Shown: positions 792-11,061, counted from the stretch's first letter. The stretch: DNA of 11,061 nt from Aquabacterium sp. (GCA_046160725.1 JBJXHB010000079.1:1-11061), one strand, 5' to 3'. Notes: generated by a model from the sequence alone, not told the origin. Translations and numbers: made by a program.

Positions 792-1934
792 TCAGCCCTT
801 CAGCGTCACCAGCCCGTTGAGCACCTGGTCCAGGCCGCCGAACACGGTGATTTTGTCGATGCGCTCGGCCACACGTTCCAGCGTCTCGAGTTCCTTCATG
901 CGCAGCGCAACGGGGCTGCCTTCCATCACCTTGGCGGTGTTGAGCAGCGATCGCGTCGCCGCGGTCTCCTCGCGACGCCGGATCGCATTGGCCTCGGCCG
1001 CCTTGCCCGCCTCCACCACCTGCGCCAAGATGGTCTTCATCGCGCCGGGCAGCACGATGTCCTTCACGCCCACGCCGACCAGCTGCATCCCGTAGTCCGC
1101 GAGCCTGGTGCTGACCTGGGTGGTCACGATCTCGTCGATCACCGTCTTGTTTTCCAGCAGTTCGTCGAGCGAACGGGTGCCCACGGCCGCGCGCAGCCCC
1201 AGCTGCAGCTCGCGATACAGGTACTCCGCCGGCTGCTGCAGTTCCCCGTAGGCCAGCTGCACGTCGCTGAACCGCCAGGTGGCCGACAGGTTCAGGCGCA
1301 GCGCCACCTTGTCGCGGGTCAGGATCTCCTGCCCCGAGACCTCGATGGTCTGCAGCCGCAGGTCCACGATCTCCACCGCCACCGGGCGCTTGAACTTCCA
1401 GAACGCGTAGGACCCCGGCTCCAGCAGGCGCTCGACCTTGCCGTAGGTCGACAGGATGCCGGCACCGTGACGGGGCACCTGCACCTGCAGCACGCCGGAC
1501 AGGCCCGCCACCGCAGGCTGGCGCTGCTGCGACTGCAGCAAACGCAACAGGACCGGCGCCGGCACCTCGGCCGACTCCGCGATTTCGATCACCTCGACAT
1601 CCACCGCCACGATGCCCTTCCAGTACAGGCGCCGGGTACCCGGCGGCATCACCTCGACCAGCGCGCCGTTCTCGGTGCGCAGGCCGACCTGGTTCTCGGT
1701 GAGTTCCACGCGCAGGAACTCCGCGGCCACGACCGCGGGCTCGCGGGCCAGCAGGTAGTCGGCCAGGCCATGGGTGAACGCGGCTTGCTCCAGCGCGAAG
1801 ATCTTCACGCTCAGATCGTCCATCGGCGCGACCAGCCAATGCGTGCCGGGCTGCAGCACGCGCTCGAAATCGCCATTGCGCAGCAGCAGGCCGCGTTCGT
1901 TCTTCTTCACAGTGACACGCTTGAGCATCTTCAT
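792..1934 (-). CDS. SPFH/band-7 (stomatin/HflK-like, slipin) domain protein, 380 aa. The N-terminal beta-region is duplicated and there is no obvious N-terminal TM helix.
   Basis: Internal start MKMLKRVTVKKNERGLLLRNGDFERVLQPGTHWL of track ORF 792..2363. GGAGAA RBS 5 nt upstream of ATG (reverse complement of 1932-1934). Second SPFH-like N-strand GKVERLLEPGSYAFWKFKRPVAVEIVDLRLQTIEVSGQEILTRDKVAL. C-terminus AQVVEAGKAAEANAIRRREETAATR...KITVFGG is typical of band-7 coiled-coil tails. The stop lies 28 nt upstream of the rtcB start. Confidence 0.85.
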   Translation of the reverse strand: MKMLKRVTVKKNERGLLLRNGDFERVLQPGTHWLVAPMDDLSVKIFALEQAAFTHGLADYLLAREPAVVAAEFLRVELTENQVGLRTENGALVEVMPPGTRRLYWKGIVAVDVEVIEIAESAEVPAPVLLRLLQSQQRQPAVAGLSGVLQVQVPRHGAGILSTYGKVERLLEPGSYAFWKFKRPVAVEIVDLRLQTIEVSGQEILTRDKVALRLNLSATWRFSDVQLAYGELQQPAEYLYRELQLGLRAAVGTRSLDELLENKTVIDEIVTTQVSTRLADYGMQLVGVGVKDIVLPGAMKTILAQVVEAGKAAEANAIRRREETAATRSLLNTAKVMEGSPVALRMKELETLERVAERIDKITVFGGLDQVLNGLVTLKG

Positions 1935-2693
1935 GGTGTTCTCCGGTTGTGGGATGCGTGGGGTGGTCTGGTGACGGTGTAGGTGCCGTACAGCAGCAGC
2001 CGCGGACCGCGAATGCCAGGGCTGGGGCACCAGGGTGTGCCGAGGCCGTCTTCGGTTCGCCGGGTTGCGCAACCCCGCAAGGGGCTTCGCGCCGGGCGAT
2101 GAAGGCCGTCTCGGCTGGCCATGGGCGCCATGCCCCGCTTGCTCGCGGCACAAGCGGCCGCCGCTGATGGGCCGGTGCCCCGCTGCCTTGCGGCAGCCGT
2201 GCAACGTCCCACGTCCGGCGTGGTCTTTCGACCAGCTTCTGGGTTTCAATACCAGGACTTGCAGCGGGGGGTTGTGCCCGCCTTGAACAACGGTTTCAGT
2301 CGTTGTTCGTCTGCAGCTTCGGGCGGTCCGGCATGGACGACACCAACGGGCGGACCCGGGCATCGCCCACCAGCGGGGAGAACCTCACGTTGCAACGAGG
2401 CCCGATCCCCTGGCCTTTCGGCTCTCGCCTTCCTCAGCAGATTCGTGTGTGCCCGGGCCACTCAGCCCAGGCGCGATCCTTTCGGCGGCCGGTTTGACCG
2501 GCACGATGGTTGTTCTGTCGCACGCACTTCGGCTGTGTCCCTGCGCGAGAATCCCGTCGGATGTGGTGTCTCGCTGCACGGGGCCAGGCCCTGGACCGCG
2601 CACATCCCGGGCCACCAACACCTGTCGGCGTGGCCACGGAGTGCAGGGGCACACCCGAAGTGGGGCGATCAGAAAAGCGATCGAACAAAGAAA

Positions 2694-2724
2694 GAGGCCC
2701 GGATCCTTTCGGCATCCGGGCCTC
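2694..2724 (-). terminator. Rho-independent terminator on the minus strand. Perfect 11-bp GC-rich stem (gaggcccggat / atccgggcctc) with a 9-nt loop, then UUUCUUUGUU on the minus strand.
   Basis: Read directly. 2694-2704 pairs with 2714-2724. The plus strand has an A-rich run (aaagaaag) 5' of the stem and no T-run 3', so the terminator is oriented for minus-strand transcripts coming from >2724. Confidence 0.5.
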
Positions 2725-2942
2725 TGCGTACAGAGTGGGAAGGTGCGCGCGAACTAGTGGTGTCCTGCGTGTCCTTCACCCGGAATCGATGGGCCCTGGG
2801 CGCTGCCGCGTGGGCCGACGCCTATTGAGGCAAGGCCCAGCGCAACGCGTGCGACCACACCCCGGCCCTGTGTGGGTGGGTTGGTCCAATGGGCGCGGTG
2901 TGTCTTCACGGTCTGGCTCGGTGGGTCGATTCGGGGCGGACT

Positions 2943-2957
2943 GTAAAGAGTCTTTAC
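2943..2957. promoter_or_regulatory. AT-rich 7-1-7 perfect palindrome GTAAAGA-G-TCTTTAC, 24 nt upstream of the HTH regulator start. Candidate operator overlapping its promoter.
   Basis: Read directly. It is an AT-rich island in 70% GC DNA, immediately 5' of the ATG at 2981. Confidence 0.35.
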
Positions 2958-2980
2958 GCAGCCGTCAACCCCCTGCGAGA

Positions 2981-3394
2981 ATGTTCTTCCCCCTTGTTGT
3001 GGATCGAGCGCGGCGCGTGTCCAACCTCACTGTTGCCAGAAGGCGCAATGCCCTGGCCCTGTTCCAGGACTTCGCCGAGCGCGCGGTAGCCGGCGGCGGG
3101 TCACCGAAGGGGCTGGAGCAGGCCTTCGCGGCCCTGCTGCAGGTCTCGCCCAGCATGTGGAGCCAGGTCAAGTCCGCGCGGCCGATCGGCGACAAGCTGG
3201 CGCGGCAGATCGAGGCCGCCTGCGGCAAGCCATCGGGCTGGCTCGACGAGGAACGCGCGGCGGCCGTGCTCAGCCCTGCCGAGCAGACCTTTCTCGATCT
3301 CGCGCTGGCGGCCTACCGGTCGACGAATGCGCAGGGGAGACGTTCGCTGCGGGCTCAGCTTCAGGCGCTGATGAAGGAGCGCGACACGTCGTAG
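2981..3394 (+). CDS. XRE/Cro-CI family helix-turn-helix transcriptional regulator, 137 aa (phage-repressor-like DNA-binding protein).
   Basis: The C-terminal part of track ORF 2510..3394. The upstream 150 aa are R/G-rich junk, so the start is taken at ATG 2981 (GTG 2999 is an alternative). The HTH signature LQVSPSMWSQVKSARPIGDKLARQIEAACGKPSGWLDEE matches the Cro/CI helix2-helix3 and 'G.R.P...wL' pattern. Confidence 0.55.
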   Translation: MFFPLVVDRARRVSNLTVARRRNALALFQDFAERAVAGGGSPKGLEQAFAALLQVSPSMWSQVKSARPIGDKLARQIEAACGKPSGWLDEERAAAVLSPAEQTFLDLALAAYRSTNAQGRRSLRAQLQALMKERDTS

Positions 3395-3651
3395 CTCATC
3401 GGCAGGTCCTGTGCCGCCACGTGGCCATGGCGTCGTACCCGATTGCCTTCAGGGACGCTTGTTCGGGCGGCGCCTTCGGGCTGTCTGCGGTGTGTCGGGA
3501 TGTCCGCTGTCGTTTCGCTTGACGCATTGGCGCGGCAAGGCCCGGGCCGGCGGGCTTGGCAGCCAGAGTCCGGCGCCCGGCCCTGCGGTCCGGGTGCCCT
3601 GCGATCCTCGGCACGGGGCTTAAAGCATGAGCACTTGGCCCAACCCGGGGA

Positions 3652-3686
3652 CCCCTGCGGCCCCTGCGCCCCTGCGGCCCCTGCGG
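3652..3686. repeat. Tandem repeat, ~4 copies of the 9-nt unit CCCCTGCGG (one copy 8 nt), ending in GGGGG.
   Basis: Read directly at 3652-3690, in ORF-poor DNA between the HTH regulator and the TA module. Confidence 0.6.
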
Positions 3687-3851
3687 GGGCTGTCGAGATC
3701 GGACAACAAATCCGAACCACCGGCAGCCAGATTCAACAGATCGCTATGGTCCAAGTCACGCAAACTGGCCTCCACGAAACCCGGTGCGGTTCACGGCGCC
3801 GGTGCGCCGCAGTTGCAAGCCATCCGAGCGGGCGGCTCATGCCGAGTCAAG

Positions 3852-3880
3852 TTGCGAGGATATATCCATTTCAGTATAGT
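3852..3880 (+). promoter_or_regulatory. Sigma70-type promoter TTGCGA-17nt-TATAGT for the toxin-antitoxin operon. The spacer contains the perfect palindrome GGATATATCC (3858-3867). The -10 ends 6 nt before the toxin ATG, so the mRNA is probably leaderless.
   Basis: Read directly. The 17-nt spacer is exact and there is no SD between the -10 and ATG 3887. The palindrome is a plausible antitoxin autorepression operator. Confidence 0.5.
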
Positions 3881-3886
3881 CACGCC

Positions 3887-4063
3887 ATGAAGGCGATCAC
3901 CTTCCTGGGCAACTCGCTGGCGTGCTTGCGCGATTTCCCAGAGGACGCGAGACAGGACGCCGGTTACGTGCTGCACGCCTTCCAGAAGAAGACCCAGGCC
4001 ACCAGCAAGCAGGACATCGAGATTGCGAGAAGTCGATACACCGAACTGATGCGAGGGCGTTGA
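3887..4063 (+). pseudogene. HigB/RelE-ParE-fold toxin (HI1419 / Gp49-like 'addiction module killer' family) with an in-frame internal deletion. It encodes 58 aa against ~100-115 aa expected.
   Basis: MKAITFLGNSLACLRDFPEDARQDAGY joined directly to VLHAFQKKTQATSKQDIEIARSRYTELMRGR. The conserved N-terminus and the C-terminal 'VYVLHAFQKKTQKT' box are present, but the central beta-sheet core (~45 aa) is missing. The stop overlaps the antitoxin start (ATGA-type overlap at 4061-4065). Confidence 0.6.
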
Positions 4064-4347
4064 TGAAGAAGCGAGACAAGACCTACGCCAGCGTCTGGGA
4101 CGCCCTGGCCGACACGCCCGAGCAGGCGGCCAACCTGCAGGCCAGGGCGGACCTGATGCGCCAGCTCGCCGAGCTGATCCAGGCCAAGGGCTGGAAACAG
4201 ATCGAAGCGGCCGAGCGCTGCGGTGTCACTCAGCCACGCATCAACGATCTGCTGCGCGGGCGCGTGTCGCGGTTCTCGCTCGATGCTCTGGTGAACATCG
4301 CGACGTCGCTCGGGCGGCGCGTGAGCGTGGAGCTCGAAGCGGCCTGA
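4063..4347 (+). CDS. higA: HigA-family / HTH_37-type antitoxin (XRE HTH), 94 aa.
   Basis: MKKRDKTYASVWDALADTPEQAANLQARADLMRQLAELIQAKGWKQIEAAERCGVTQPRINDLLRGRVSRFSLDALVNIATSLGRRVSVELEAA, with the characteristic 'PRI(S/N)DLLRGR...FSLDALV...LGRRV' signature of antidotes paired with Gp49/HigB-like toxins. The track ORF 3922..4347 uses an upstream in-frame ATG. ATG 4063 is preferred because it overlaps the toxin stop. Confidence 0.8.
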   Translation: MKKRDKTYASVWDALADTPEQAANLQARADLMRQLAELIQAKGWKQIEAAERCGVTQPRINDLLRGRVSRFSLDALVNIATSLGRRVSVELEAA

Positions 4348-4386: not shown

Positions 4387-5364
4387 TCAGGCCAGCGCTA
4401 GGAACACCCCAAACCATCCCCGCTCGTCGGTCCAGTGCTGCACATCCCGCCAGCCCGCGTCGTGCAGCAGGGCCTTGAAGCCGGGCAGCGTCCACTTGTA
4501 CGAGTTCTCGGTGTGCATCCGCTCGCCGGCGGCAAAGGCGCGCTGCCCGCCGTCGAACGACACCGTGACATCACGCCGCGCCTGCAGATGCATCTCGATG
4601 CGCGACTCGGCGGTGTTGAAGAAGGCCACATGGGCCCAGTCACGGACGTGGAAGTCCGCGCCGATCAGGGCGTTCACGTGCTTGAGCAGGTTGAGGTTGA
4701 AGGCCGCCGTCACCCCCAGCGCGTCGTCATAGGCCGGCTCCAGGATGTCGCTAGCCTTGACCAGGTCGACGCCGATCAGCAGCGCGCCGCCGCCGCTGGC
4801 CTCGCGCGCCTCGCGCATCAGGCGCAGCGCATCCTGCGGCGCGAAGTTGCCGATGCTGGAGCCGGGGTAGAAGACCACGGCCGGGCCGCCCGGCAGCTCG
4901 GCCGGCAGCTGCAGGCGCTGCGAGAAGTCCAGCCCCAGGCCCACCATCTCGATGCCGGGATGCTCCCGCGCCAGGCGCGTCACGCCGTCGCGCAGATAGG
5001 CCACCGAGATGTCCACCGGCACATAGCGGCGCGGCCGCATCAGCGGAAACAGCCGCGCACTCTTGGCCCCATCGCCCGCGCCCAGGTCGATCCAGGTCAA
5101 GTCCGTGCCGACCGCCGCGTGCACCGCGGCGGCCATCGCCGGCCCGTGCGCCGCGAAGATGGCGGCCTCGGTGCGGGTCGGGTAGTACTCCGGCAGCTCG
5201 GTGATGGCGTCGAACAGCCGCGACCCCAGCGGGTCGTACAGATACTTGGGAGAAACCCGCGCTGGCGACAGGGCCAGGCCGGCGCGCAGCTCGGCGCGCA
5301 CACCCTCCTGGTCCTCGTGATGCAGCTGGATGAAGCGCGCCGGCGCGACTTGGATGGTGGGCAT
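4387..5364 (-). CDS. egtD: L-histidine N-alpha-methyltransferase EgtD (ergothioneine biosynthesis), 325 aa.
   Basis: Track ORF 4387..5487 trimmed to the internal start MPTIQVAPARF (ATG is the reverse complement of 5362-5364). Sequence shows ...YLYDPLGSRLFDAITELPEYYPTRTE...VDLGAGDG...FYPGSSIGNF...ENSYKWT..., the EgtD/dimethylhistidine methyltransferase fold and length. Confidence 0.88.
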   Translation of the reverse strand: MPTIQVAPARFIQLHHEDQEGVRAELRAGLALSPARVSPKYLYDPLGSRLFDAITELPEYYPTRTEAAIFAAHGPAMAAAVHAAVGTDLTWIDLGAGDGAKSARLFPLMRPRRYVPVDISVAYLRDGVTRLAREHPGIEMVGLGLDFSQRLQLPAELPGGPAVVFYPGSSIGNFAPQDALRLMREAREASGGGALLIGVDLVKASDILEPAYDDALGVTAAFNLNLLKHVNALIGADFHVRDWAHVAFFNTAESRIEMHLQARRDVTVSFDGGQRAFAAGERMHTENSYKWTLPGFKALLHDAGWRDVQHWTDERGWFGVFLALA

Positions 5365-5506
5365 CGGGTTCACTGTAGCGGGGCTTGACCGACCGCCGCA
5401 CGGGTGGATGGCGGCTGAGTTGTAATCTGCGGCCGATGCGCGGCGACCTTCCGTCGCACCGGCCGGTGCCGTCCTTCGTCGTTCCAACCCTGACTGGAGT
5501 TACGCC

Positions 5507-6373
5507 ATGCTCGACCTTTCCCCCTCCCGCACCCTGAAAGCCCTGATGACCCTGGCGCTGGTGGCCATCGGCACGCTGGCGCATGCCCAGGCCGTGTTCC
5601 GCGTCACCACCATACCGGAGGAGGCGGCCACCGAGCAGGTGCGCAAGTTCACCCCGTTGGCGACGTACCTTGAAAAGAAGTTGGGCGTGAAGGTCGAGTT
5701 CACCCCGGTCAGCGACTATCCCGCCGCCGTCGAGGCCCTGGTCAACAAGAAGGTCGACCTGGTCTGGTTTGGTGGCTTCACCCATGTGCAGGCGCAGATC
5801 CGCTCCGGCGGCAAGATCGTGCCGATCGCGCAGCGCGAGGAAGACACCCAGTTCCGCTCGGTCTTCATTGCCAAGACCGACTCCGGCATCAAGACCATGG
5901 CCGACATGAAGGGCAAGCAGGTCAGCTTCGGATCGCAGAGCAGCACCTCGGGCCACCTGATGCCGCGCAGCAACCTGCTGGACGCCGGCATCAACCCGGA
6001 CAAGGATTTCCGCCGCATCGCCTACAGCGGTGCGCATGACGCGACCATCGCCTCGGTGGTCAGCGGCAAGGTCGACGCCGCCGCGCTGGACATCACCGTG
6101 TGGCGCAAGTTCGTGTCCGAGAACAAGGTCGACACCAAGGCGGTCGACGTGTTCTTCACCACCCCCCCGTACTACAACTACAACTGGTCGGTGCATGCCG
6201 ACATGCCCGCCGCGATGCGCGACAGGGTGCAGAAGGCACTGCTGGACCTGGACTCGGCCACGCCGGAAGGCAAGGAGATCCTGCAGTTGAACCGGGCCAC
6301 GCGCTACATCCCGACCAAGGCCGAGAACTACAAGGGCCTGGAGGCCGCCGGCCGCAGCGCCGGGCTGATCTGA
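5507..6373 (+). CDS. phnD: PhnD/PtxB-family periplasmic substrate-binding protein of a phosphonate-type ABC transporter, 288 aa with a signal peptide.
   Basis: N-terminal signal MLDLSPSRTLKALMTLALVAIGTLAHAQA. Colinear with E. coli PhnD (KLGVKVEF..DY.....KVDLVWFGG; anion-binding loop FGSQSSTSGHLMP vs FGNGDPNSTSGFLVP). GGAG RBS at 5496-5499. Confidence 0.85.
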   Translation: MLDLSPSRTLKALMTLALVAIGTLAHAQAVFRVTTIPEEAATEQVRKFTPLATYLEKKLGVKVEFTPVSDYPAAVEALVNKKVDLVWFGGFTHVQAQIRSGGKIVPIAQREEDTQFRSVFIAKTDSGIKTMADMKGKQVSFGSQSSTSGHLMPRSNLLDAGINPDKDFRRIAYSGAHDATIASVVSGKVDAAALDITVWRKFVSENKVDTKAVDVFFTTPPYYNYNWSVHADMPAAMRDRVQKALLDLDSATPEGKEILQLNRATRYIPTKAENYKGLEAAGRSAGLI

Positions 6374-6386
6374 TACCGGGCACCCG

Positions 6387-7223
6387 GTGCAGATCTCGAT
6401 CGAGGCGCTGGACGCCCGGCACCCGGCCGCGCGCGCTGGCGCGGCGCCGGCGCTGCGCGGCCTGGCCCTGACGGTGGCCAGTGCCGAGGCGCTGGCGGTG
6501 ATCGGGCCCTCCGGGGCCGGCAAGACCACCCTGCTGCAGGTCCTGGCCTGCGCGCTGAAGCCCGATGCCGGCCGGGTGGTGGTCGATGGCATCGACCCCT
6601 GGTCGCTGCCGCGGCGCCAGCTGCAGGCGTTGCGCGGGCAGCTGCTGCTGGCGCCGCAGGTGCCGCCGTTGCCGCCCCGGCAGCGCGTGGTGACCTCGGT
6701 GCTGGCCGGCCGGCTGCCGGCCTGGTCGCTGTGGACCAGCCTGCGCTCGCTGCTGTATCCCGTCGACATACCAGCCGCCCATGACGCCCTGGCCCGCTTC
6801 GACCTGGCCGAGAAGCTGTTCGAGCGGGTCGACCGGCTGTCCGGCGGCGAGCGACAACGCGTCGGCCTGGCCCGCACGCTGCTGGCGCCGGCCCGCCTGT
6901 GGCTGATCGACGAGCCGCTGTCGGCGCTGGACCCGACGCGCGCCGCGCTGGCGCTGCGCACGCTGGTGGACGAGGCCCGCGCGCGGCGCGTCACGCTGGT
7001 GGCCACCCTGCACGACGTGCCGATGGCACTGTCGCACTTCCCGCGCATCGTCGGCCTGCGCGACGGCCGCGTGCAGTTCGACCTGCAGGCCGCGGCGGTG
7101 ACGCCCGAGCGCCTGCAGGCCCTGTATGCCCAGCACGAGCACGAGCTGCTGGGTGGGGCGGCGACGGCCTCCGACACCGCCGCCGCGCCGCCGCCGGCAC
7201 CGGTGGTCATGCACTGCCGCTGA
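6387..7223 (+). CDS. phnC: ABC transporter ATP-binding protein (PhnC-like), 278 aa, GTG start.
   Basis: Walker A GPSGAGKTT, ABC signature LSGGERQRVGLAR, Walker B LWLIDEPLSALD, H-loop TLHDV. Starts 13 nt after the phnD stop. Confidence 0.9.
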   Translation: MQISIEALDARHPAARAGAAPALRGLALTVASAEALAVIGPSGAGKTTLLQVLACALKPDAGRVVVDGIDPWSLPRRQLQALRGQLLLAPQVPPLPPRQRVVTSVLAGRLPAWSLWTSLRSLLYPVDIPAAHDALARFDLAEKLFERVDRLSGGERQRVGLARTLLAPARLWLIDEPLSALDPTRAALALRTLVDEARARRVTLVATLHDVPMALSHFPRIVGLRDGRVQFDLQAAAVTPERLQALYAQHEHELLGGAATASDTAAAPPPAPVVMHCR

Positions 7224-7247
7224 GCCGCTGCGCCGCCACCCAGCCGC

Positions 7248-8084
7248 ATGACCGCACCGACGCTGCCCGCCCCGCCCAGCCGCGACCCGGCCTGGGTGTC
7301 GCGCGTCGCCCTGCTCAGCGTGGCGGCGGTGCTGCTGTGGCCGCTGATGGTGGCCACGGAGTTCAAGCCCTGGATCTTCCTGGAGCGGGACAACCTCAAG
7401 GTCACCGGGCAGTTCCTGGCCAGCTTCCTGCCGCCGGCCCACTCGGCCGAGTTCATGGCCATGGTGGCGCGCGAGAGCTGGCGCACGGTGGCCATCGCCA
7501 CCGCCGGCATGACCCTGGCGCTGGTAATCGCCATCCCGCTGGCGGTGCTGTCCGCCCGGGTGCTGTCGGTGTCGGCGCTGTCGGGCCGAATGGCGCGCGG
7601 GCCGACGCTGCTGCGCCAGGCCGTGCGCTGGCTGCTGATCGTGCTGCGCAGCGTGCCCGAGCTGGTGTGGGCGCTGGTGTTCGTCCGCGTGGTCGGCCTG
7701 GGCCCCACGGCCGGCGTGCTGGCCATCGCCCTGACGTATGGCGGCATGCTGGGCAAGGTCTACGGCGAGATCCTGGAAAGCGGCGAGCCCCATGCCACCC
7801 AGACGCTGCTGCGCAACGGCGGCTCGCGCCTGCAGGCCTTCGCCTACGGCCTGCTGCCGCAGAACGCCGCCGAGCTGACCAGCTACACCGTCTACCGCTG
7901 GGAGTGCGCCATCCGCAGCTCGGTGGTGCTGGGCTTCGTCGGTGCCGGCGGGCTGGGCCAGCAGCTGGACAACTCGATGAAGATGTTCAATGGCGGCGAG
8001 GTGCTGACCATGCTGGCCGTCTTCGTCGGCCTGGTGGCGCTGGCCGACCGCGTCAGCGCGGGCCTGCGGCGGGCCCTGGGGTGA
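7248..8084 (+). CDS. phnE: Phosphonate-type ABC transporter permease PhnE (copy 1), 278 aa.
   Basis: Multi-TM hydrophobic protein with the PhnE/PtxC-type EAA-like loop region. Starts 24 nt after the phnC stop. Confidence 0.85.
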   Translation: MTAPTLPAPPSRDPAWVSRVALLSVAAVLLWPLMVATEFKPWIFLERDNLKVTGQFLASFLPPAHSAEFMAMVARESWRTVAIATAGMTLALVIAIPLAVLSARVLSVSALSGRMARGPTLLRQAVRWLLIVLRSVPELVWALVFVRVVGLGPTAGVLAIALTYGGMLGKVYGEILESGEPHATQTLLRNGGSRLQAFAYGLLPQNAAELTSYTVYRWECAIRSSVVLGFVGAGGLGQQLDNSMKMFNGGEVLTMLAVFVGLVALADRVSAGLRRALG

Positions 8085-8088
8085 GCGC

Positions 8089-8925
8089 ATGACGTCGCCC
8101 GCCTCCCCAGCCGGCGCGACGGCGCCGCAGCGCTTGCCGCCACCGCTGTTCAGCGCGCGCTGCCGCGGCTGCTGGTTCACCGCCGCGCTGCTGGTGCTGG
8201 TGGTGGCCAGCTTCTGGACCCTGGACCTGCAGTGGGCGCAGTTCCTGTCCCTGGACGCGGCGCGCAGCATGGGCCGCTTCATCGGCGAGTTCTTCCCGCC
8301 GGACACCAGCCCGGCCTTCCTGCGCCGCGTGGCCATCGGCGCCTGGGAGACGCTGGCCATGTCCGCCTTCGGCACGCTGCTGGCCGCCCTGGGCGGGCTG
8401 GCGCTGGCCCTGCCGGCCAGCCGCCTGTACGACGGCGACGCGGCGCGCGCCCGCGGCGCCACCCGGCTGCTGCTGAACGCGCTGCGCTCGATACCGGAGC
8501 TGGTGTGGGCCGGCCTGCTGCTGATCGCCGCGGGCCTCGGGCCCTTCGCCGGCACGCTCGCCCTGGCCATGCACACCACCGGCGTGCTGGGCCGGCTGTT
8601 CGCCGAGGCCATCGAGAACGCCCCCAGCGGCCCCGGCACCGCGCTGCGCACCCATGGCGTGGGCAACCTGCGGGTGTTCGTCTATGCCACGCTGCCGCAG
8701 GTGTTGCCGCAGCTGATGAGCTACACCTTGTACCGCTGGGAGAACAACATCCGCGCGGCCGCGGTTCTGGGCGTGGTCGGTGCCGGCGGGCTGGGCCAGC
8801 TGCTGGCCTTCCACATGGGCCTGTTCCACATGGGCAAGACCTGCACCATCCTCGGCGCGATGCTGCTGATGGTGGCCCTGGTGGACGCCGCCAGCGACGT
8901 CATGCGGCGCTGGATGGCCCGCTGA
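8089..8925 (+). CDS. phnE: Phosphonate-type ABC transporter permease PhnE (copy 2), 278 aa. A paralogue of the preceding gene, suggesting a heterodimeric permease.
   Basis: Paralogous to 7248-8084 (shared ...SIPELVWAGLL..., ...SYTLYRWENNIRAAAVLGVVGAGGLGQ...). Starts 4 nt after the upstream stop. Confidence 0.85.
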   Translation: MTSPASPAGATAPQRLPPPLFSARCRGCWFTAALLVLVVASFWTLDLQWAQFLSLDAARSMGRFIGEFFPPDTSPAFLRRVAIGAWETLAMSAFGTLLAALGGLALALPASRLYDGDAARARGATRLLLNALRSIPELVWAGLLLIAAGLGPFAGTLALAMHTTGVLGRLFAEAIENAPSGPGTALRTHGVGNLRVFVYATLPQVLPQLMSYTLYRWENNIRAAAVLGVVGAGGLGQLLAFHMGLFHMGKTCTILGAMLLMVALVDAASDVMRRWMAR

Positions 8926-9100
8926 TGCCGACGGCCACGGCGCCGCGCAAGGGCTGCCCCCGATCACCAGGGCCGGCCCGCTGCCGTAACCTCCGGGCCG
9001 CCCCCAGCGACTGCCTGACCATGCCCGACATCTGCATCGGCCCGCCGCCCACCCGCCCGCGAGTCCGCGCTTGAGCGTGCTGGGCCTTCCGCCGCTGAGC

Positions 9101-9439
9101 GTGCCCCAGGCCTGGGCCGTGCTGTCGGTCGCCATCCTGTTCGAGGTCGCCGGCACGACCTGCATGCGGCTGTGCGAGGGCTTCACGCGGCTGACGCCTT
9201 CGGTGCTGATCTTCGTTTTCTACGCCATCTCGTTCGCGCTCAACGTCAGCGTCATCCGGGTCCTGGGCATGAGCGTCACCTATGCCGTCTGGTCGGGCGT
9301 GGGCACGCTGCTGACGGCCTTGATCGGCTACCTGTACTTCAAGGAGCCGGCCACGGCGCTGAAGATGATGTCGGCGGGGCTGATCGTGATCGGCGTGTTC
9401 GGGCTGCATGCGTCGTCGCGCGCGGCGGCGGCTTCCTGA
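9101..9439 (+). CDS. Small multidrug resistance (SMR) family transporter, EmrE/Qac-like, ~112 aa. GTG start chosen; the track start TTG 9071 would add a 10-aa extension.
   Basis: ...AILFEVAGTTCMRLCEGFTRLTPSVLIFVFYAISFALNVSVIRVLGMSVTYAVWSGVGTLLTALIGYLY... is colinear with E. coli EmrE (AILAEVIGTTLMKFSEGFTRLWPSV...AYAIWSGVGIVLISLLSW). With the 9101 start the conserved membrane Glu falls at position 15, against Glu14 in EmrE. Confidence 0.8.
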   Translation: MPQAWAVLSVAILFEVAGTTCMRLCEGFTRLTPSVLIFVFYAISFALNVSVIRVLGMSVTYAVWSGVGTLLTALIGYLYFKEPATALKMMSAGLIVIGVFGLHASSRAAAAS

Positions 9440-9456
9440 GGTCGGGGCCAGAGATC

Positions 9457-10089
9457 ATGGGCGCGATGAGCGACAACGAGTTGTCGATCCAGCGCTACCG
9501 GCACCGCGCCGCGGGCTATGACGCCTCGGCCCGGCTGACCATGCCGTTGCGCGAGCGCGCCATCGCACTGCTGGCGCTGAAACCCGGCGACGTGGTGGTC
9601 GACGTCGGCGCCGGCACCGGCCTGAGCTATGGCCTGCTGCTGGAGGCTGTCGGCCCGGCCGGCCGCGTGCTGGCCTTCGAGCAGAGCCCGGAGATGTTCG
9701 CCCAGGCCCGGGCCCGCGTCGGCCGCGAGGGCTGGGGCGGCCGGGTGGTGCACCGGCTGGGCCGCGCCGAGGACGTGCGGTTCGAGCAGCCCGCCGATGC
9801 CATCCTCTTCAACTACGTGCACGACATCAGCCGCACGCCCGAGGCCGTGGCCAACCTGCTGTCGCAGGTGCGCCCGGGTGGCCGCGTGGCCATGGCGGGC
9901 ATGAAGTTCGTTCCCTGGTGGACCGGGCCACTCAATCTGCTGGCCTGGGCCAAGAATCGCCCCTACAACGCCAAGGCGGCCGACCTGTGGGCGCCCTGGG
10001 ACCATGTGCAGCGCCACTGCGCGCGCTTCGACCGCCAATCCACGCAGTGGGGCATGGGCTACATCGCCCACGGCCGGCTGCCGGGCTGA
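9457..10089 (+). CDS. Class I SAM-dependent methyltransferase, 210 aa. Substrate unknown.
   Basis: SAM motif I VVDVGAGTGLS, followed by the acidic motif II region (VLAFEQSP) and motif III (RPGGRVAM). The internal ATG 9457 of track ORF 9172..10089 is chosen because the preceding SMR gene ends at 9439. Lies 17 nt after the SMR stop and 21 nt before egtB. Confidence 0.8.
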   Translation: MGAMSDNELSIQRYRHRAAGYDASARLTMPLRERAIALLALKPGDVVVDVGAGTGLSYGLLLEAVGPAGRVLAFEQSPEMFAQARARVGREGWGGRVVHRLGRAEDVRFEQPADAILFNYVHDISRTPEAVANLLSQVRPGGRVAMAGMKFVPWWTGPLNLLAWAKNRPYNAKAADLWAPWDHVQRHCARFDRQSTQWGMGYIAHGRLPG

Positions 10090-10110
10090 CCCCTTCCCTG
10101 CGAGGTGAAC

Positions 10111-11061
10111 ATGTCCGCCATCCCCACGCCCGCATCGATGCCGGATGCCCGGTCCCTGCTGGCCGAGCGCTATGCCGCGGTGCGTGGGCAGACCCTGGCA
10201 CTGGCCGAGGGGCTGTCCGAGGCCGACTGCCAGGCGCAGTCGATGGCCGATGCCAGCCCGGTGAAATGGCACCTGGCCCATGTCACCTGGTTCTTCGAGA
10301 CCTTCGTGCTGGAGCGCCACGAGCCCGGCTTCGCGCCGCATCACCCGGCCTTCCGGGTGCTGTTCAACAGCTACTACAACGGCGTGGGCGACCAGCATCC
10401 GCGGCCGCAGCGGGGCCTGGTCACCCGGCCTGGGCTTGCGCAGGTGCTGGCCTATCGCCAGGCCGTGGATGCCCGCATGGCGCAGTGGCTGCGCCAGCCG
10501 GTGCCGGCCGAGGCCGCGGCCCTGGTCGAGCTGGGCCTGCAGCATGAGCAGCAGCACCAGGAGCTGATCCTCACCGACCTCAAGCACCTGCTGTCGTGCA
10601 ACCCGCTGCAGCCGGTGTACCGGCCGGGTTGGCCGCTGGCGCCGGTGGCGCCGGTGGCCATGCGCTTCCTGCCCTCCGCAGGCGGCCGGGTGGCCATCGG
10701 CCATTCCGGCGCGGGCTTCGCCTTCGACAACGAGACACCGCGGCATGACGTCTGGCTGCGGCCGTATGCGCTGGCCAACCGGCTGGTCACGCATGGTGAG
10801 TTCGCCGCCTTCATCGCCGACGGCGGCTACCGCGACCCGCGCTGGTGGTTGTCGGCCGGCTGGGACTGGGTGCGTAACCAGGCCGTGCAGGCGCCGCTGT
10901 ATTGGCGCCGCGAGGGCGACGGCCTGCTGGACTGGAGCGCCTTCACGCTGCACGGCCGGGTGGCCATCGACCCGCATACGCCGGCCACCCACATCAGCCT
11001 GTACGAGGCCGATGCCTACTGCCGCTGGTGGTCGGCGCAGCATCCCGGCACGCCGGCCGCG
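10111..11061 (+). CDS. egtB: Ergothioneine biosynthesis sulfoxide synthase EgtB (DinB_2 plus FGE-sulfatase-like domains), partial: N-terminal 317 aa, continues beyond the window.
   Basis: MSAIPTPASMPDARSLLAERY...SPVKWHLAHVTWFFETFVL...LGLQHEQQHQELILTDLKHLL (DinB metal-binding region), then ...RVAIGHSGAGFAFDNETPRHDVWLRPYALANRLVTHGEF...GGYRDPRWW (FGE-like domain). GAGGTG RBS at 10103-10108. The EgtB vs SenA (selenoneine) subtype is not decidable by eye. Confidence 0.88.
   Translation, partial: MSAIPTPASMPDARSLLAERYAAVRGQTLALAEGLSEADCQAQSMADASPVKWHLAHVTWFFETFVLERHEPGFAPHHPAFRVLFNSYYNGVGDQHPRPQRGLVTRPGLAQVLAYRQAVDARMAQWLRQPVPAEAAALVELGLQHEQQHQELILTDLKHLLSCNPLQPVYRPGWPLAPVAPVAMRFLPSAGGRVAIGHSGAGFAFDNETPRHDVWLRPYALANRLVTHGEFAAFIADGGYRDPRWWLSAGWDWVRNQAVQAPLYWRREGDGLLDWSAFTLHGRVAIDPHTPATHISLYEADAYCRWWSAQHPGTPAA

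What the first reader, a model, noticed from the sequence alone, without database searches (positions are those of the whole stretch)
4387..11061. Split ergothioneine locus: egtD divergent from an operon-like string phnD-phnC-phnE-phnE-SMR-methyltransferase-egtB
egtB and egtD are normally adjacent (egtABCDE or egtBD). Here 4.7 kb of transport and methylation genes sits between them on the egtB strand, with tight spacing: phnD-phnC 13 nt, phnC-phnE 24 nt, phnE-phnE 4 nt, SMR-MTase 17 nt, MTase-egtB 21 nt. This predicts co-transcription of an ABC importer, an SMR exporter, an extra SAM methyltransferase and the sulfoxide synthase. That architecture is not the described egt cluster. It suggests a variant thio-histidine (ergothioneine/ovothiol-like) or seleno-histidine (selenoneine-like; SenA is an EgtB homologue) pathway. 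The importer would bring in an anionic precursor, for example an oxyanion via the PhnD/PtxB-type binding protein. The SMR pump would export the zwitterionic product, or the EgtB reaction might be coupled to a second methylation.
Basis: inference. Interest (0 to 1): 0.7.

Follow-up and report, generated by a model that had tools for sequence, protein, structure and literature searches.

The report
Selenoneine-linked ergothioneine locus lacking sen genes
This is one copy, missing its three selenium-specific genes, of a gene neighbourhood common in Burkholderiales bacteria that makes the antioxidants ergothioneine and selenoneine; only its small pump plus methyltransferase pair is unexplained.

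Summary
One 145-nt gap between the second permease and the SMR gene was not mentioned.

The "phnD" gene belongs to NCBIfam TIGR04553, the putative selenate ABC binding protein (367 bits, cutoff 250). It is not true PhnD (175 bits, cutoff 261). The EgtB is an ordinary type II sulfoxide synthase. It is not SenA-, OvoA- or OvsA-like.

The layout is not unique. About 160 related loci show two modules that assort independently:
- **egtD plus the ABC importer.** In relatives, senA/senB lie upstream of the binding-protein gene in 32 of 35 loci. The link between sen clusters, egtD and a selenate transporter was already noted by Kayrouz et al. 2022.
- **SMR-methyltransferase-EgtB.** These genes are tightly spaced and also occur without the importer or sen genes.

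In this window, which is a whole 11-kb Aquabacterium MAG contig, senCBA is absent. A degenerate toxin-antitoxin pair and an SPFH gene sit there instead.

The role of the methyltransferase/SMR pair remains unknown. My best guess is tailoring and export of a histidine betaine. Interest is moderate to low: a variant of a known kind.

The parts
4387..5364 (-). egtD, L-histidine N-alpha-methyltransferase (makes hercynine). Likely start is the ATG at 5364; the open frame runs on to 5487.
   Evidence: TIGR03438 355.6 bits (cutoff 290.9) and PF10017 326.7 bits. 68% identical to the egtD of L004, which lies between senA and the binding-protein gene.
5365..5506 (.). Divergent intergenic region between egtD and the binding-protein gene. 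Carries a GGAG ribosome-binding site and a TTGTAAT -10-like element shared with several relatives.
   Evidence: Alignment of 19 homologous intergenic regions. Only the TGTAAT-like element and the Shine-Dalgarno site recur. No sigma-70 consensus hit.
5507..6373 (+). Periplasmic substrate-binding protein of the TIGR04553 family (putative selenate / selenium oxyanion ABC transporter), with a signal peptide.
   Evidence: TIGR04553 367 bits (cutoff 250); PhnD equivalog TIGR03431 175 bits (cutoff 261). Nearest solved structures are PhnD/PtxB-type oxyanion binders. In close relatives egtD is adjacent in 47/57 loci and senA/senB lie upstream in 32/35.
6387..7223 (+). ABC transporter ATP-binding subunit (PhnC-like).
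   Evidence: PF00005 89.6 bits; TIGR02315 163.7 bits, below its 266 cutoff. 73% identical to the L004 orthologue.
7248..8084 (+). ABC permease 1 (PhnE-like).
   Evidence: TIGR01097 199.7 bits; PF00528. 81% identical to L004.
8089..8925 (+). ABC permease 2 (PhnE-like). Marks the end of the block conserved at nucleotide level.
   Evidence: TIGR01097 253 bits. blastn alignments of 5507-8925 to many loci (80-84% identity) stop at about 8890-8930.
8926..9070 (.). 145-nt spacer at the junction between the importer module and the SMR-MTase-EgtB module.
   Evidence: No terminator-like site, no Rfam family, fold no better than shuffles. In relatives this position holds nothing, an overlap, or a pair of YHS-type genes.
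9071..9439 (+). SMR-family small efflux protein (TTG start). Its TM1 motif EVAGTTCM looks EmrE/Qac-like.
   Evidence: PF00893 83.8 bits. PDB: Gdx-Clo 67.7 bits, EmrE 58 bits. Lies next to the MTase in 63/81 related loci.
9457..10089 (+). Class I SAM-dependent methyltransferase of unknown substrate. NCBI calls the start at 9466 (207 aa).
   Evidence: Only generic MTase Pfam hits; best NCBIfam hits are ArsM-like at 44-49 bits, far below cutoffs. Conserved subfamily in 225 species genomes. AF2 model pLDDT 83; Foldseek returns generic small-molecule MTases.
10111..11061 (+). egtB, type II hercynine/cysteine sulfoxide synthase. N-terminal 317 aa, truncated by the contig end.
   Evidence: TIGR03440 376.4 bits (cutoff 360); SenA 259 bits (cutoff 420). 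CthEgtB 6O6L/6QKI/8QF6 about 309 bits versus SenA about 70 and OvsA 73. His ligands and the NSYY motif align.

Best explanation
The window is a sen-less copy of a composite redox/selenium gene neighbourhood found in Comamonadaceae and Sphaerotilaceae (Burkholderiales). It is two modules set side by side, not one new pathway.

**Module 1: egtD divergent from the ABC importer.**
- The importer has a TIGR04553 binding protein, an ATPase and two PhnE-like permeases.
- In relatives this module is bounded on the egtD side by senA and senB-senC.
- EgtD makes hercynine.
- The importer most likely brings in a selenium oxyanion, selenite or selenate. That feeds SenC (selenophosphate), then SenB (selenosugar), then SenA (selenoneine).
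- In this contig senCBA is missing. A degenerate toxin-antitoxin pair and an SPFH gene occupy that side. The sen genes are therefore either elsewhere in the genome or lost.

**Module 2: SMR-methyltransferase-EgtB.**
- EgtB is a normal type II (cysteine-type) sulfoxide synthase. It uses the same hercynine to make the ergothioneine precursor. The C-S lyase is not linked.
- The methyltransferase and the EmrE-like SMR are tightly spaced with EgtB, often overlapping it in relatives.
- They probably methylate and/or export a histidine-betaine product: ergothioneine, selenoneine or a methylated derivative.

**Basis of each step.**
- Shown here: gene identities, family memberships, the modular synteny and its statistics.
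- Taken from the literature: the biochemistry of SenA, SenB, SenC and EgtD.
- Inferred: the importer's ligand, the substrate of the methyltransferase, and the cargo of the SMR.
For: **Family assignments.**

**Full supercluster in relatives.** The order is senC<-senB<- ->senA <-egtD ->SBP-ABC-perm-perm-SMR-MTase-EgtB-(ATP-grasp-like)-YHS-patatin. It appears in L004/L005 and in about 20 genome loci, including an Aquabacterium MAG, L031. In L004, SenA, SenB and SelD pass their equivalog models.

**MTase-anchored survey (82 loci).**
- EgtB directly follows the MTase in 46/68 loci.
- SMR is adjacent in 63/81.
- In long loci, ABC and sen co-occur: 16 with both, 3 with sen only, 0 with ABC only, 11 with neither (Fisher p = 7e-6, not corrected for phylogeny).
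- The median gap from the MTase stop to the EgtB start is about 2 nt. From SMR to MTase it is about 9 nt.

**Binding-protein-anchored survey (80 metagenome loci).**
- egtD is adjacent in 47/57 loci.
- senA/senB lie upstream in 32/35.
- EgtB is present in only 2/28 and the MTase in 3/28.

**Other.**
- The ABC block aligns as a discrete unit at nucleotide level.
- The SMR TM1 motif is EmrE-like.
Against: - No sen gene or remnant is on this contig. The selenium link for this particular organism therefore rests on relatives and on a 'hypothetical equivalog' family name. No TIGR04553 member has a measured ligand that I could find.
- The contig is a MAG fragment. A chimeric join left of egtD cannot be excluded.
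- The methyltransferase shows only generic similarity.
- More distant members of its family sit in unrelated contexts. They are fused to unrelated domains, never to EgtB.
- Some close relatives have the MTase and SMR without EgtB.
- SMR subtype assignment is ambiguous: the best PDB score is to the guanidinium exporter Gdx-Clo.
- The association statistics are not corrected for shared ancestry.
Confidence: 0.7

Rival explanations
1. This is a genuinely new thio-/seleno-histidine pathway. All genes from the importer to EgtB form one operon. The EgtB-like enzyme uses an imported precursor, and the extra methyltransferase performs a second, pathway-specific methylation.
For: Spacing is tight and there are no terminators. 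The MTase and EgtB overlap or nearly abut in 44 of 50 relatives. The same importer-SMR-MTase-EgtB order recurs in about 20 loci.
Against: - EgtB is an orthodox type II enzyme and fails the SenA model.
- True SenA, SenB and SenC sit beside the locus in relatives and already account for selenium use.
- The importer and SMR-MTase-EgtB assort independently.
- The MTase is unrelated to the OvoA/OvsM methyltransferase: no hit to the OvoA chain 8KHQ.
Confidence: 0.08
2. The methyltransferase and SMR form a selenium (or other metalloid) detoxification pair. The MTase would methylate selenide or methylselenol to dimethylselenide or the trimethylselenonium cation. The SMR would expel the cation, balancing the importer.
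For: The best NCBIfam hits of the MTase, though weak, are all ArsM-type or selenoprotein methyltransferases (44-49 bits). JGI annotates relatives as arsenite methyltransferase. The pair lies next to a putative selenium importer and YHS (seleno)protein genes in relatives. SMR pumps take small quaternary cations (established knowledge).
Against: - Scores are far below the ArsM cutoffs, and only one Cys is invariant, unlike the ArsM cysteine set.
- In Polaromonas and Rhodoferax loci the SMR-MTase pair sits with EgtB but without an importer or sen genes within 10 kb.
- The tight spacing is with EgtB.
Confidence: 0.15
3. The ABC system is an ordinary phosphonate or phosphite importer (PhnDCE/PtxABC). 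It lies beside egt genes by accident.
For: The nearest solved structures are cyanobacterial PhnD and PtxB. The permeases pass or nearly pass the PhnE model.
Against: - The binding protein fails the PhnD equivalog (175 bits, cutoff 261) and passes TIGR04553 (367 bits, cutoff 250).
- No C-P lyase, ptxD or htx genes were seen in the loci whose gene calls or ORFs were examined. The family searches covered only the reference proteins.
- Close relatives are flanked by egtD in 47/57 loci and by sen genes in 32/35.
Confidence: 0.05
4. The methyltransferase belongs functionally with the patatin-like lipase and YHS genes, for example in membrane-lipid or other non-histidine chemistry. Its position next to EgtB would then be incidental.
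For: - The highest TM-score in the fold search is to a phosphatidylethanolamine N-methyltransferase of the same size (TM 0.72-0.73).
- Family members are fused to patatin (P0145) and to a MerR-cyclase-YHS protein (P0260).
- In several loci the MTase is followed by the ATP-grasp-like, YHS or patatin gene instead of EgtB.
Against: - EgtB is the immediate downstream gene in 46/68 loci, usually overlapping or within a few nucleotides.
- The fold hits are generic and show only 21-22% identity.
- The fusions are heterogeneous.
Confidence: 0.1

Closest known systems
[quoted passage not shown] 2022, bioRxiv 10.1101/2022.04.13.486033; Nature version recalled from memory)
   Same: egtD lies next to a TIGR04553-type ABC importer. 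In relatives senA and senB-senC lie immediately beyond egtD, in the same lineage (beta-proteobacteria).
   Different: - The window has no senA, senB or senC.
- It also carries SMR, an uncharacterised methyltransferase and a true EgtB downstream of the importer. The paper's main text does not mention these.
- The characterised V. paradoxus EgtD is only about 47% identical to this EgtD, so the model strain's own layout was not verified here.
Two-gene egtB-egtD ergothioneine loci with type II (cysteine-dependent) EgtB, e.g. Chloracidobacterium thermophilum EgtB (PDB 6O6L, 6QKI)
   Same: EgtD and a type II EgtB. The three His ligands and the Tyr-Tyr pair are conserved. There is no egtA, egtC or egtE.
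   Different: The two genes are 4.7 kb apart on opposite strands. They belong to different, separately assorting modules. EgtB is tightly spaced with an SMR pump and an extra methyltransferase.
Phosphonate/phosphite ABC importers PhnCDE / PtxABC
   Same: Same transporter architecture and fold family: one binding protein, one ATPase, PhnE-type permeases. The binding site type is for oxyanions.
   Different: The binding protein fails the PhnD equivalog model. No phosphonate or phosphite catabolic genes are present. The gene context is selenium/histidine-betaine.
Ovoselenol cluster (ovsA-ovsM-senB-senC; PMC11030361)
   Same: A histidine chalcogen pathway that contains a stand-alone SAM methyltransferase beside an EgtB-family enzyme.
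   Different: OvsM is a homologue of the OvoA C-terminal N-pi methyltransferase. This MTase is not. ovs organisms mostly lack egtD, whereas here egtD is present and the EgtB-family enzyme is a true EgtB.

Membership tests
EgtD (L-histidine N-alpha-methyltransferase) | Passes the equivalog model TIGR03438 and Pfam PF10017 over the full length | tested here: met
   355.6 bits against a cutoff of 290.9, profile positions 3-300 of 301. PF10017 326.7 bits.
EgtB, type II sulfoxide synthase | DinB_2 plus FGE-sulfatase architecture, and a score above the TIGR03440 cutoff | tested here: met
   PF12867 and PF03781 both hit. TIGR03440 gives 376.4 bits against a cutoff of 360, although only 317 aa are present.
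EgtB, type II sulfoxide synthase | Three-His iron site and the adjacent Tyr-Tyr pair of the Chloracidobacterium enzyme (residue roles recalled from the literature) | tested here: met
   Alignment to 8QF6/6QKI/6O6L: WHLAH aligns with WHLGH, HEQQH with HEQQH, and FNSYY with FNSYY.
EgtB, type II sulfoxide synthase | Complete C-terminal FGE domain and substrate-binding residues | not testable with these tools
   The contig ends at 11061, about 120 residues before the expected C-terminus.
SenA (selenoneine synthase) | Passes the equivalog model NF041186 | tested here: not met
   259.4 bits against a cutoff of 420. PDB SenA scores about 70 bits versus 309 bits for type II EgtB. The true SenA of L004 scores 445 bits.
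sen cluster (senA-senB-senC) | senA, senB (TIGR04348) and senC/selD present in the locus | tested here: not met
   tblastn of the L004 SenA, SenB and SenC proteins against the window at E <= 10 finds nothing apart from the EgtB paralogy. They are present in relatives.
TIGR04553 putative selenate ABC transporter binding protein | Passes the family model | tested here: met
   367 bits against a cutoff of 250, profile positions 1-265 of 266.
TIGR04553 putative selenate ABC transporter binding protein | Genomic association with selenium-utilisation genes | tested here: inconclusive
   Met in relatives: senA/senB upstream in 32/35 loci, and ABC present only where sen is present in the MTase-anchored set. 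Not met on this contig.
TIGR04553 putative selenate ABC transporter binding protein | Binds selenate or selenite | not testable with these tools
   No ligand data found. The model is a 'hypothetical equivalog'.
PhnD phosphonate binding protein | Passes the equivalog model TIGR03431 | tested here: not met
   175.3 bits against a cutoff of 261.1.
SMR (small multidrug resistance) transporters | PF00893 domain, four TM helices, and the conserved TM1 glutamate | tested here: met
   PF00893 83.8 bits. The Glu in FEVAGTT aligns with E13/E14 of Gdx-Clo and EmrE.
SMR subtype (Qac/EmrE versus Gdx) | Subtype-specific TM1 residues (EVxGTTxM in EmrE, EVVWAIAL in Gdx; EmrE sequence recalled from memory) | tested here: inconclusive
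   The motif EVAGTTCM looks EmrE-like, but the whole-sequence score is slightly higher to Gdx-Clo (67.7 versus 58 bits).
ArsM arsenite methyltransferase | Passes the ArsM models | tested here: not met
   PRK11873 44.6 bits against a cutoff of 263; NF040538 25 bits against a cutoff of 500. Only one Cys is invariant in the subfamily.
OvsM / OvoA C-terminal N-pi methyltransferase | Sequence homology to the OvoA methyltransferase domain | tested here: not met
   OvoA chain 8KHQ is not among the 25 PDB hits at E <= 0.01.

The most novel reading that the evidence does not exclude
The conserved SMR-methyltransferase pair, tightly spaced with EgtB, is a dedicated tailoring-and-export system for histidine-betaine antioxidants. 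One version: a bacterial S-/Se-methyltransferase makes S-methyl-ergothioneine or Se-methyl-selenoneine, and an EmrE-like pump secretes ergothioneine, selenoneine or the methylated product. To my knowledge no bacterial enzyme or exporter of this kind has been described. My searches for papers on one returned no relevant results.
Probability: 0.25. Interest if true: 0.6.

Novelty: new variant of a known kind. Interest (0 to 1): 0.38.

Why it matters
The result corrects a tempting over-reading. This locus is not a new thio- or seleno-histidine pathway. It is a juxtaposition of the known selenoneine-associated egtD/importer unit with an EgtB unit.

Two leads remain.
- **The importer.** The TIGR04553 importer is almost always linked to egtD and senABC. 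That makes it the obvious candidate for the dedicated selenium uptake step of selenoneine biosynthesis, and its ligand has not been measured in anything I could find.
- **The SMR-methyltransferase pair.** A previously undiscussed SMR-methyltransferase pair lies beside EgtB in at least five genera of Burkholderiales. It could be the first bacterial tailoring or export function for ergothioneine-type antioxidants.

Sen-less copies such as this window, L107 and L146 offer natural comparisons. They can show what the importer does when the selenoneine genes are not adjacent.

Tried and rejected
- **Exact-sequence look-ups.** I looked up the window's MTase, binding protein and P0001 to extend the contig. 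None is on record. The contig is only 11061 bp.
- **RNA and signal scans.** The Rfam scan found no RNA family. The promoter scan found no consensus promoter, and the only terminator-like site is on the minus strand inside a permease gene. The 145-nt spacer does not fold better than shuffles.
- **tRNA call.** ARAGORN called a tRNA-Ile inside permease 1. I rejected it as a false positive inside a conserved coding frame.
- **Methyltransferase structure.** The AF2 model and Foldseek search against the PDB gave only generic small-molecule class I methyltransferases and no substrate clue.
- **Domain fusions.** I looked for Rosetta-stone fusions in 1.8 billion representatives. There are no MTase-EgtB or MTase-SMR fusions, only heterogeneous ones.
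- **Context of a more distant MTase relative.** It is unrelated: a metallo-beta-lactamase-fold neighbour.
- **The ATP-grasp-like neighbour in relatives.** It has no solved homologue.
- **Literature.** Searches for a bacterial S-/Se-methyl ergothioneine or selenoneine methyltransferase and for an SMR-ergothioneine link found nothing relevant. One search was badly specified and uninformative.
- **Link to the characterised strain.** I tried to tie the layout to Variovorax paradoxus DSM 30034 through its published EgtD sequence. Identity is only 44-50%, so I do not claim that strain has this arrangement.
- **sen remnants.** I searched the left 4.4 kb for them and found none.

Full report
**1. What is in the sequence**

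The window is a high-GC (65-76%) sequence.

| Gene | Coordinates | Key evidence |
|---|---|---|
| egtD | 4387-5364 (-) | TIGR03438 355.6 bits, cutoff 290.9 |
| Periplasmic binding protein | 5507-6373 | TIGR04553 (see section 2) |
| ABC ATPase | 6387-7223 | PF00005 |
| PhnE-like permease 1 | 7248-8084 | TIGR01097, PF00528 |
| PhnE-like permease 2 | 8089-8925 | TIGR01097, PF00528 |
| SMR protein | 9071-9439 | PF00893 |
| Class I SAM methyltransferase | 9457/9466-10089 | generic MTase families only |
| EgtB, first 317 residues | 10111-11061 | TIGR03440 (see section 2) |

That gap has no terminator-like site, no Rfam match, and folds no better than shuffled sequence.

A homologue search returned a 100% identical methyltransferase from an "Aquabacterium sp." MAG whose longest contig is 11061 bp. 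The window is therefore the entire contig, and nothing beyond 11061 can be read from this record.

**2. Two names need correcting**

The "phnD" product passes NCBIfam TIGR04553, "putative selenate ABC transporter substrate-binding protein", at 367 bits against a cutoff of 250. It fails the PhnD equivalog at 175 bits against a cutoff of 261. Its nearest solved relatives are PhnD/PtxB-type oxyanion binders.

The EgtB fragment passes the EgtB equivalog even though it is truncated: 376 bits against a cutoff of 360. It fails SenA at 259 bits against a cutoff of 420. Scores against solved structures:

| Structure | Bits |
|---|---|
| Type II EgtB, Chloracidobacterium thermophilum | about 309 |
| Type I EgtB | 88 |
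| OvsA | 73 |
| SenA | about 70 |
| EgtB-IV | 64 |
| OvoA | 52 |

The His ligands (WHLAH, HEQQH) and the Tyr-Tyr pair (FNSYY) align with the Chloracidobacterium enzyme. It is an ordinary cysteine-type EgtB, not a SenA-, OvoA- or OvsA-like variant.

**3. Relatives show the real context**

The contexts of methyltransferase homologues were informative at once. JGI metagenome contigs L004/L005 carry this order:

senC(selD)<-senB<- ->senA <-egtD ->SBP-ATPase-permease-permease-SMR-MTase-EgtB-(455-aa protein)-YHS-patatin

In L004, SenA (445 bits, cutoff 420), SenB (424 bits, cutoff 300), SelD (533 bits) and EgtB (541 bits) all pass their equivalog models. The YHS protein passes NF041384, "YHS domain-containing (seleno)protein". 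The 455-aa protein is weakly ATP-grasp-like.

Other MAGs (L001-L003) have only SMR-MTase-EgtB-YHS-patatin, next to PKS/NRPS genes.

**4. Survey anchored on the methyltransferase**

A scan of one genome per species found relatives in 225 species. The 80 loci kept are almost all labelled Burkholderiales or Betaproteobacteria: Polaromonas, Rhodoferax, Rubrivivax, Ideonella, Aquabacterium, Hydrogenophaga, Variovorax, Methylibium and Ramlibacter.

I mapped the L004 proteins onto these loci by tblastn. Across 82 non-redundant loci, including the window:
- EgtB directly follows the MTase in 46 of 68 loci with enough downstream sequence.
- The median gap from the MTase stop to the EgtB start is about 2 nt. 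It is 50 nt or less in 44 of 50 loci.
- SMR is the neighbour on the other side in 63 of 81 loci: 37 co-directional (median gap about 9 nt) and 26 divergent.
- The ABC block is present in 21 of 49 loci with at least 5 kb upstream.

Among the 30 loci with long flanks:

| | ABC present | ABC absent |
|---|---|---|
| sen present | 16 | 3 |
| sen absent | 0 | 11 |

Fisher p = 7e-6. This is not corrected for phylogeny.

Eight loci have egtD<- ->SMR-MTase-EgtB with no importer in between. The Polaromonas/Rhodoferax loci that were read have <-SMR MTase-> (usually followed by EgtB) among unrelated genes.

**5. Survey anchored on the binding protein**

Eighty metagenome loci whose binding protein is 78-91% identical to the window's were mapped the same way.
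- egtD lies divergently within 500 bp in 47 of 57 loci.
- senA/senB lie upstream in 32 of 35. The exceptions are L107, L146 and L157. L107 and L146 have housekeeping genes there.
- What follows permease 2 varies: the ATP-grasp-like gene in 12 loci, SMR in 5, EgtB in 2, YHS in 2, the MTase in 1, and something else in 12.
- EgtB occurs in only 2 of 28 loci and the MTase in 3 of 28.

At nucleotide level, window 5507-8925 aligns as one block at 80-84% identity to many loci. The alignments stop at the end of permease 2.

The importer therefore belongs with egtD and the sen genes. SMR-MTase-EgtB is a second, separable module. The window's "operon-like string" is these two modules side by side.

**6. 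What is special about the window**

Unlike nearly all relatives, the window has no sen genes beyond egtD. A relaxed tblastn finds no remnant. The left 4.4 kb instead holds:
- an SPFH/Band-7 (HflK-like) gene, 792-2363 (-);
- about 1.4 kb with no recognisable family;
- a short Gp49/HigB-like ORF, 3888-4063 (58 aa, apparently internally deleted);
- an HTH_37 antitoxin-like gene, 4064-4347.

None of these is shared with any of the 165 loci. The sen genes may be elsewhere in the genome or lost, or the MAG contig may be chimeric at this point. I cannot tell which.

**7. Mechanism**

*Established in the literature.* EgtD makes hercynine. SenC makes selenophosphate. SenB makes a selenosugar. SenA couples the selenosugar to hercynine to give selenoneine. 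[quoted passage not shown]

*Inferred here.*
- The importer supplies a selenium oxyanion. I suggest selenite is at least as likely as selenate, because the fold family binds phosphite-like anions. That point is my own reasoning and is untested.
- EgtD feeds both SenA and the type II EgtB.
- EgtB makes hercynylcysteine sulfoxide. No C-S lyase gene is linked.

*The methyltransferase.* It is a well-folded class I enzyme (pLDDT 83). PDB sequence and fold matches are generic. It is not ArsM and not OvsM-like (for OvsM).

*The SMR.* It has the TM1 glutamate and an EmrE-like EVAGTTCM motif, although Gdx-Clo scores slightly higher overall.

*The pair together.* Given the tight spacing with EgtB, I favour methylation and/or export of a histidine-betaine product, at roughly 0.3 probability. 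The alternatives are selenium methylation and efflux, or a role with the patatin and YHS genes.

*Cautions.*
- Family members are fused to patatin or to a MerR-cyclase-YHS protein, never to EgtB.
- A more distant relative sits in an unrelated context.
- I found no paper describing such a bacterial methyltransferase or exporter.

**8. Comparison with known systems, and verdict**

The egtD/importer half matches the published sen-associated neighbourhood. The EgtB is a standard type II enzyme. The transporter is a PhnCDE-type machine with a different predicted ligand.

The new elements are the conserved SMR-MTase-EgtB module and this sen-less copy.

I could not confirm that the experimentally studied Variovorax paradoxus strain has this layout. 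Its published EgtD is only 44-50% identical to the EgtDs found here.

The finding is real but much less exotic than proposed. It is a variant of a known kind, with moderate to low interest and one worthwhile lead: the methyltransferase/SMR pair, together with the unmeasured ligand of the importer.

Noticed in passing
window 3888-4347: A toxin-antitoxin-like pair lies exactly where relatives have senA. The Gp49/HigB-like ORF is only 58 aa; its sequence reads as if the middle of the toxin were deleted. It overlaps (TGATG) an HTH_37 antitoxin-like gene of 94 aa.
   Followed up: partly
window 792-2363 (-) and 2400-3880: An SPFH/Band-7 (HflK-like) gene is followed by about 1.4 kb with no family hit. 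ORF 2510-3394 matches nothing in Pfam, and its C-terminal 137 aa match nothing in NCBIfam. This left flank is shared with none of the 165 related loci and has lower GC (0.65-0.69) than the transporter genes (0.72-0.76).
   Followed up: partly
window 7308-7392 (+): ARAGORN calls an 85-nt tRNA-Ile(GAT) inside the conserved permease-1 reading frame. This is almost certainly a false positive.
   Followed up: no
L004 11970-14842; also L031, L037, L047, L064 and many of L089-L158: A trio of genes is a more constant downstream partner of the sen/egtD/importer unit than EgtB is. The trio is a 455-aa ATP-grasp-like protein (no PDB homologue, only weak Pfam/NCBIfam hits), a YHS-domain (seleno)protein family member (NF041384) and a patatin-like lipase. 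It is probably what lay beyond 11061 in the window's genome. Its function is unknown.
   Followed up: partly
L034, L045, L050, L054, L057 (about 8600-9900): In several relatives a convergent pair of YHS-type genes sits between permease 2 and the methyltransferase, sometimes replacing the SMR gene. This is the same junction as the window's 145-nt spacer.
   Followed up: no
P0145, P0260: Members of the wider methyltransferase family are fused to a patatin domain (P0145) or to MerR, an adenylate-cyclase regulatory domain, a cyclase and a YHS domain (P0260). These are the same partners seen as neighbours in the supercluster.
   Followed up: partly
L056, L035, L077, L072, L140, L141: Some superclusters lack EgtB, so the MTase is followed directly by the ATP-grasp-like gene. 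L056 also lacks senA while keeping senB and senC. Module content is fluid among close relatives.
   Followed up: no
L063, L070, L076, L038 (Variovorax/Comamonadaceae MAGs): These show a rearranged version: <-SBP egtD-> patatin-> <-SMR MTase-> EgtB-> <-senA senB-> ... senC->. Here senC is only about 32% identical to the L004 SelD-type SenC, and an extra 1.2 kb lies between senB and senC.
   Followed up: no
Supplement of 10.1101/2022.04.13.486033 versus all loci: The EgtD cloned from Variovorax paradoxus DSM 30034 is only 44-50% identical to every EgtD in these superclusters, including those from Variovorax MAGs. This suggests two distinct EgtD lineages in this group.
   Followed up: partly
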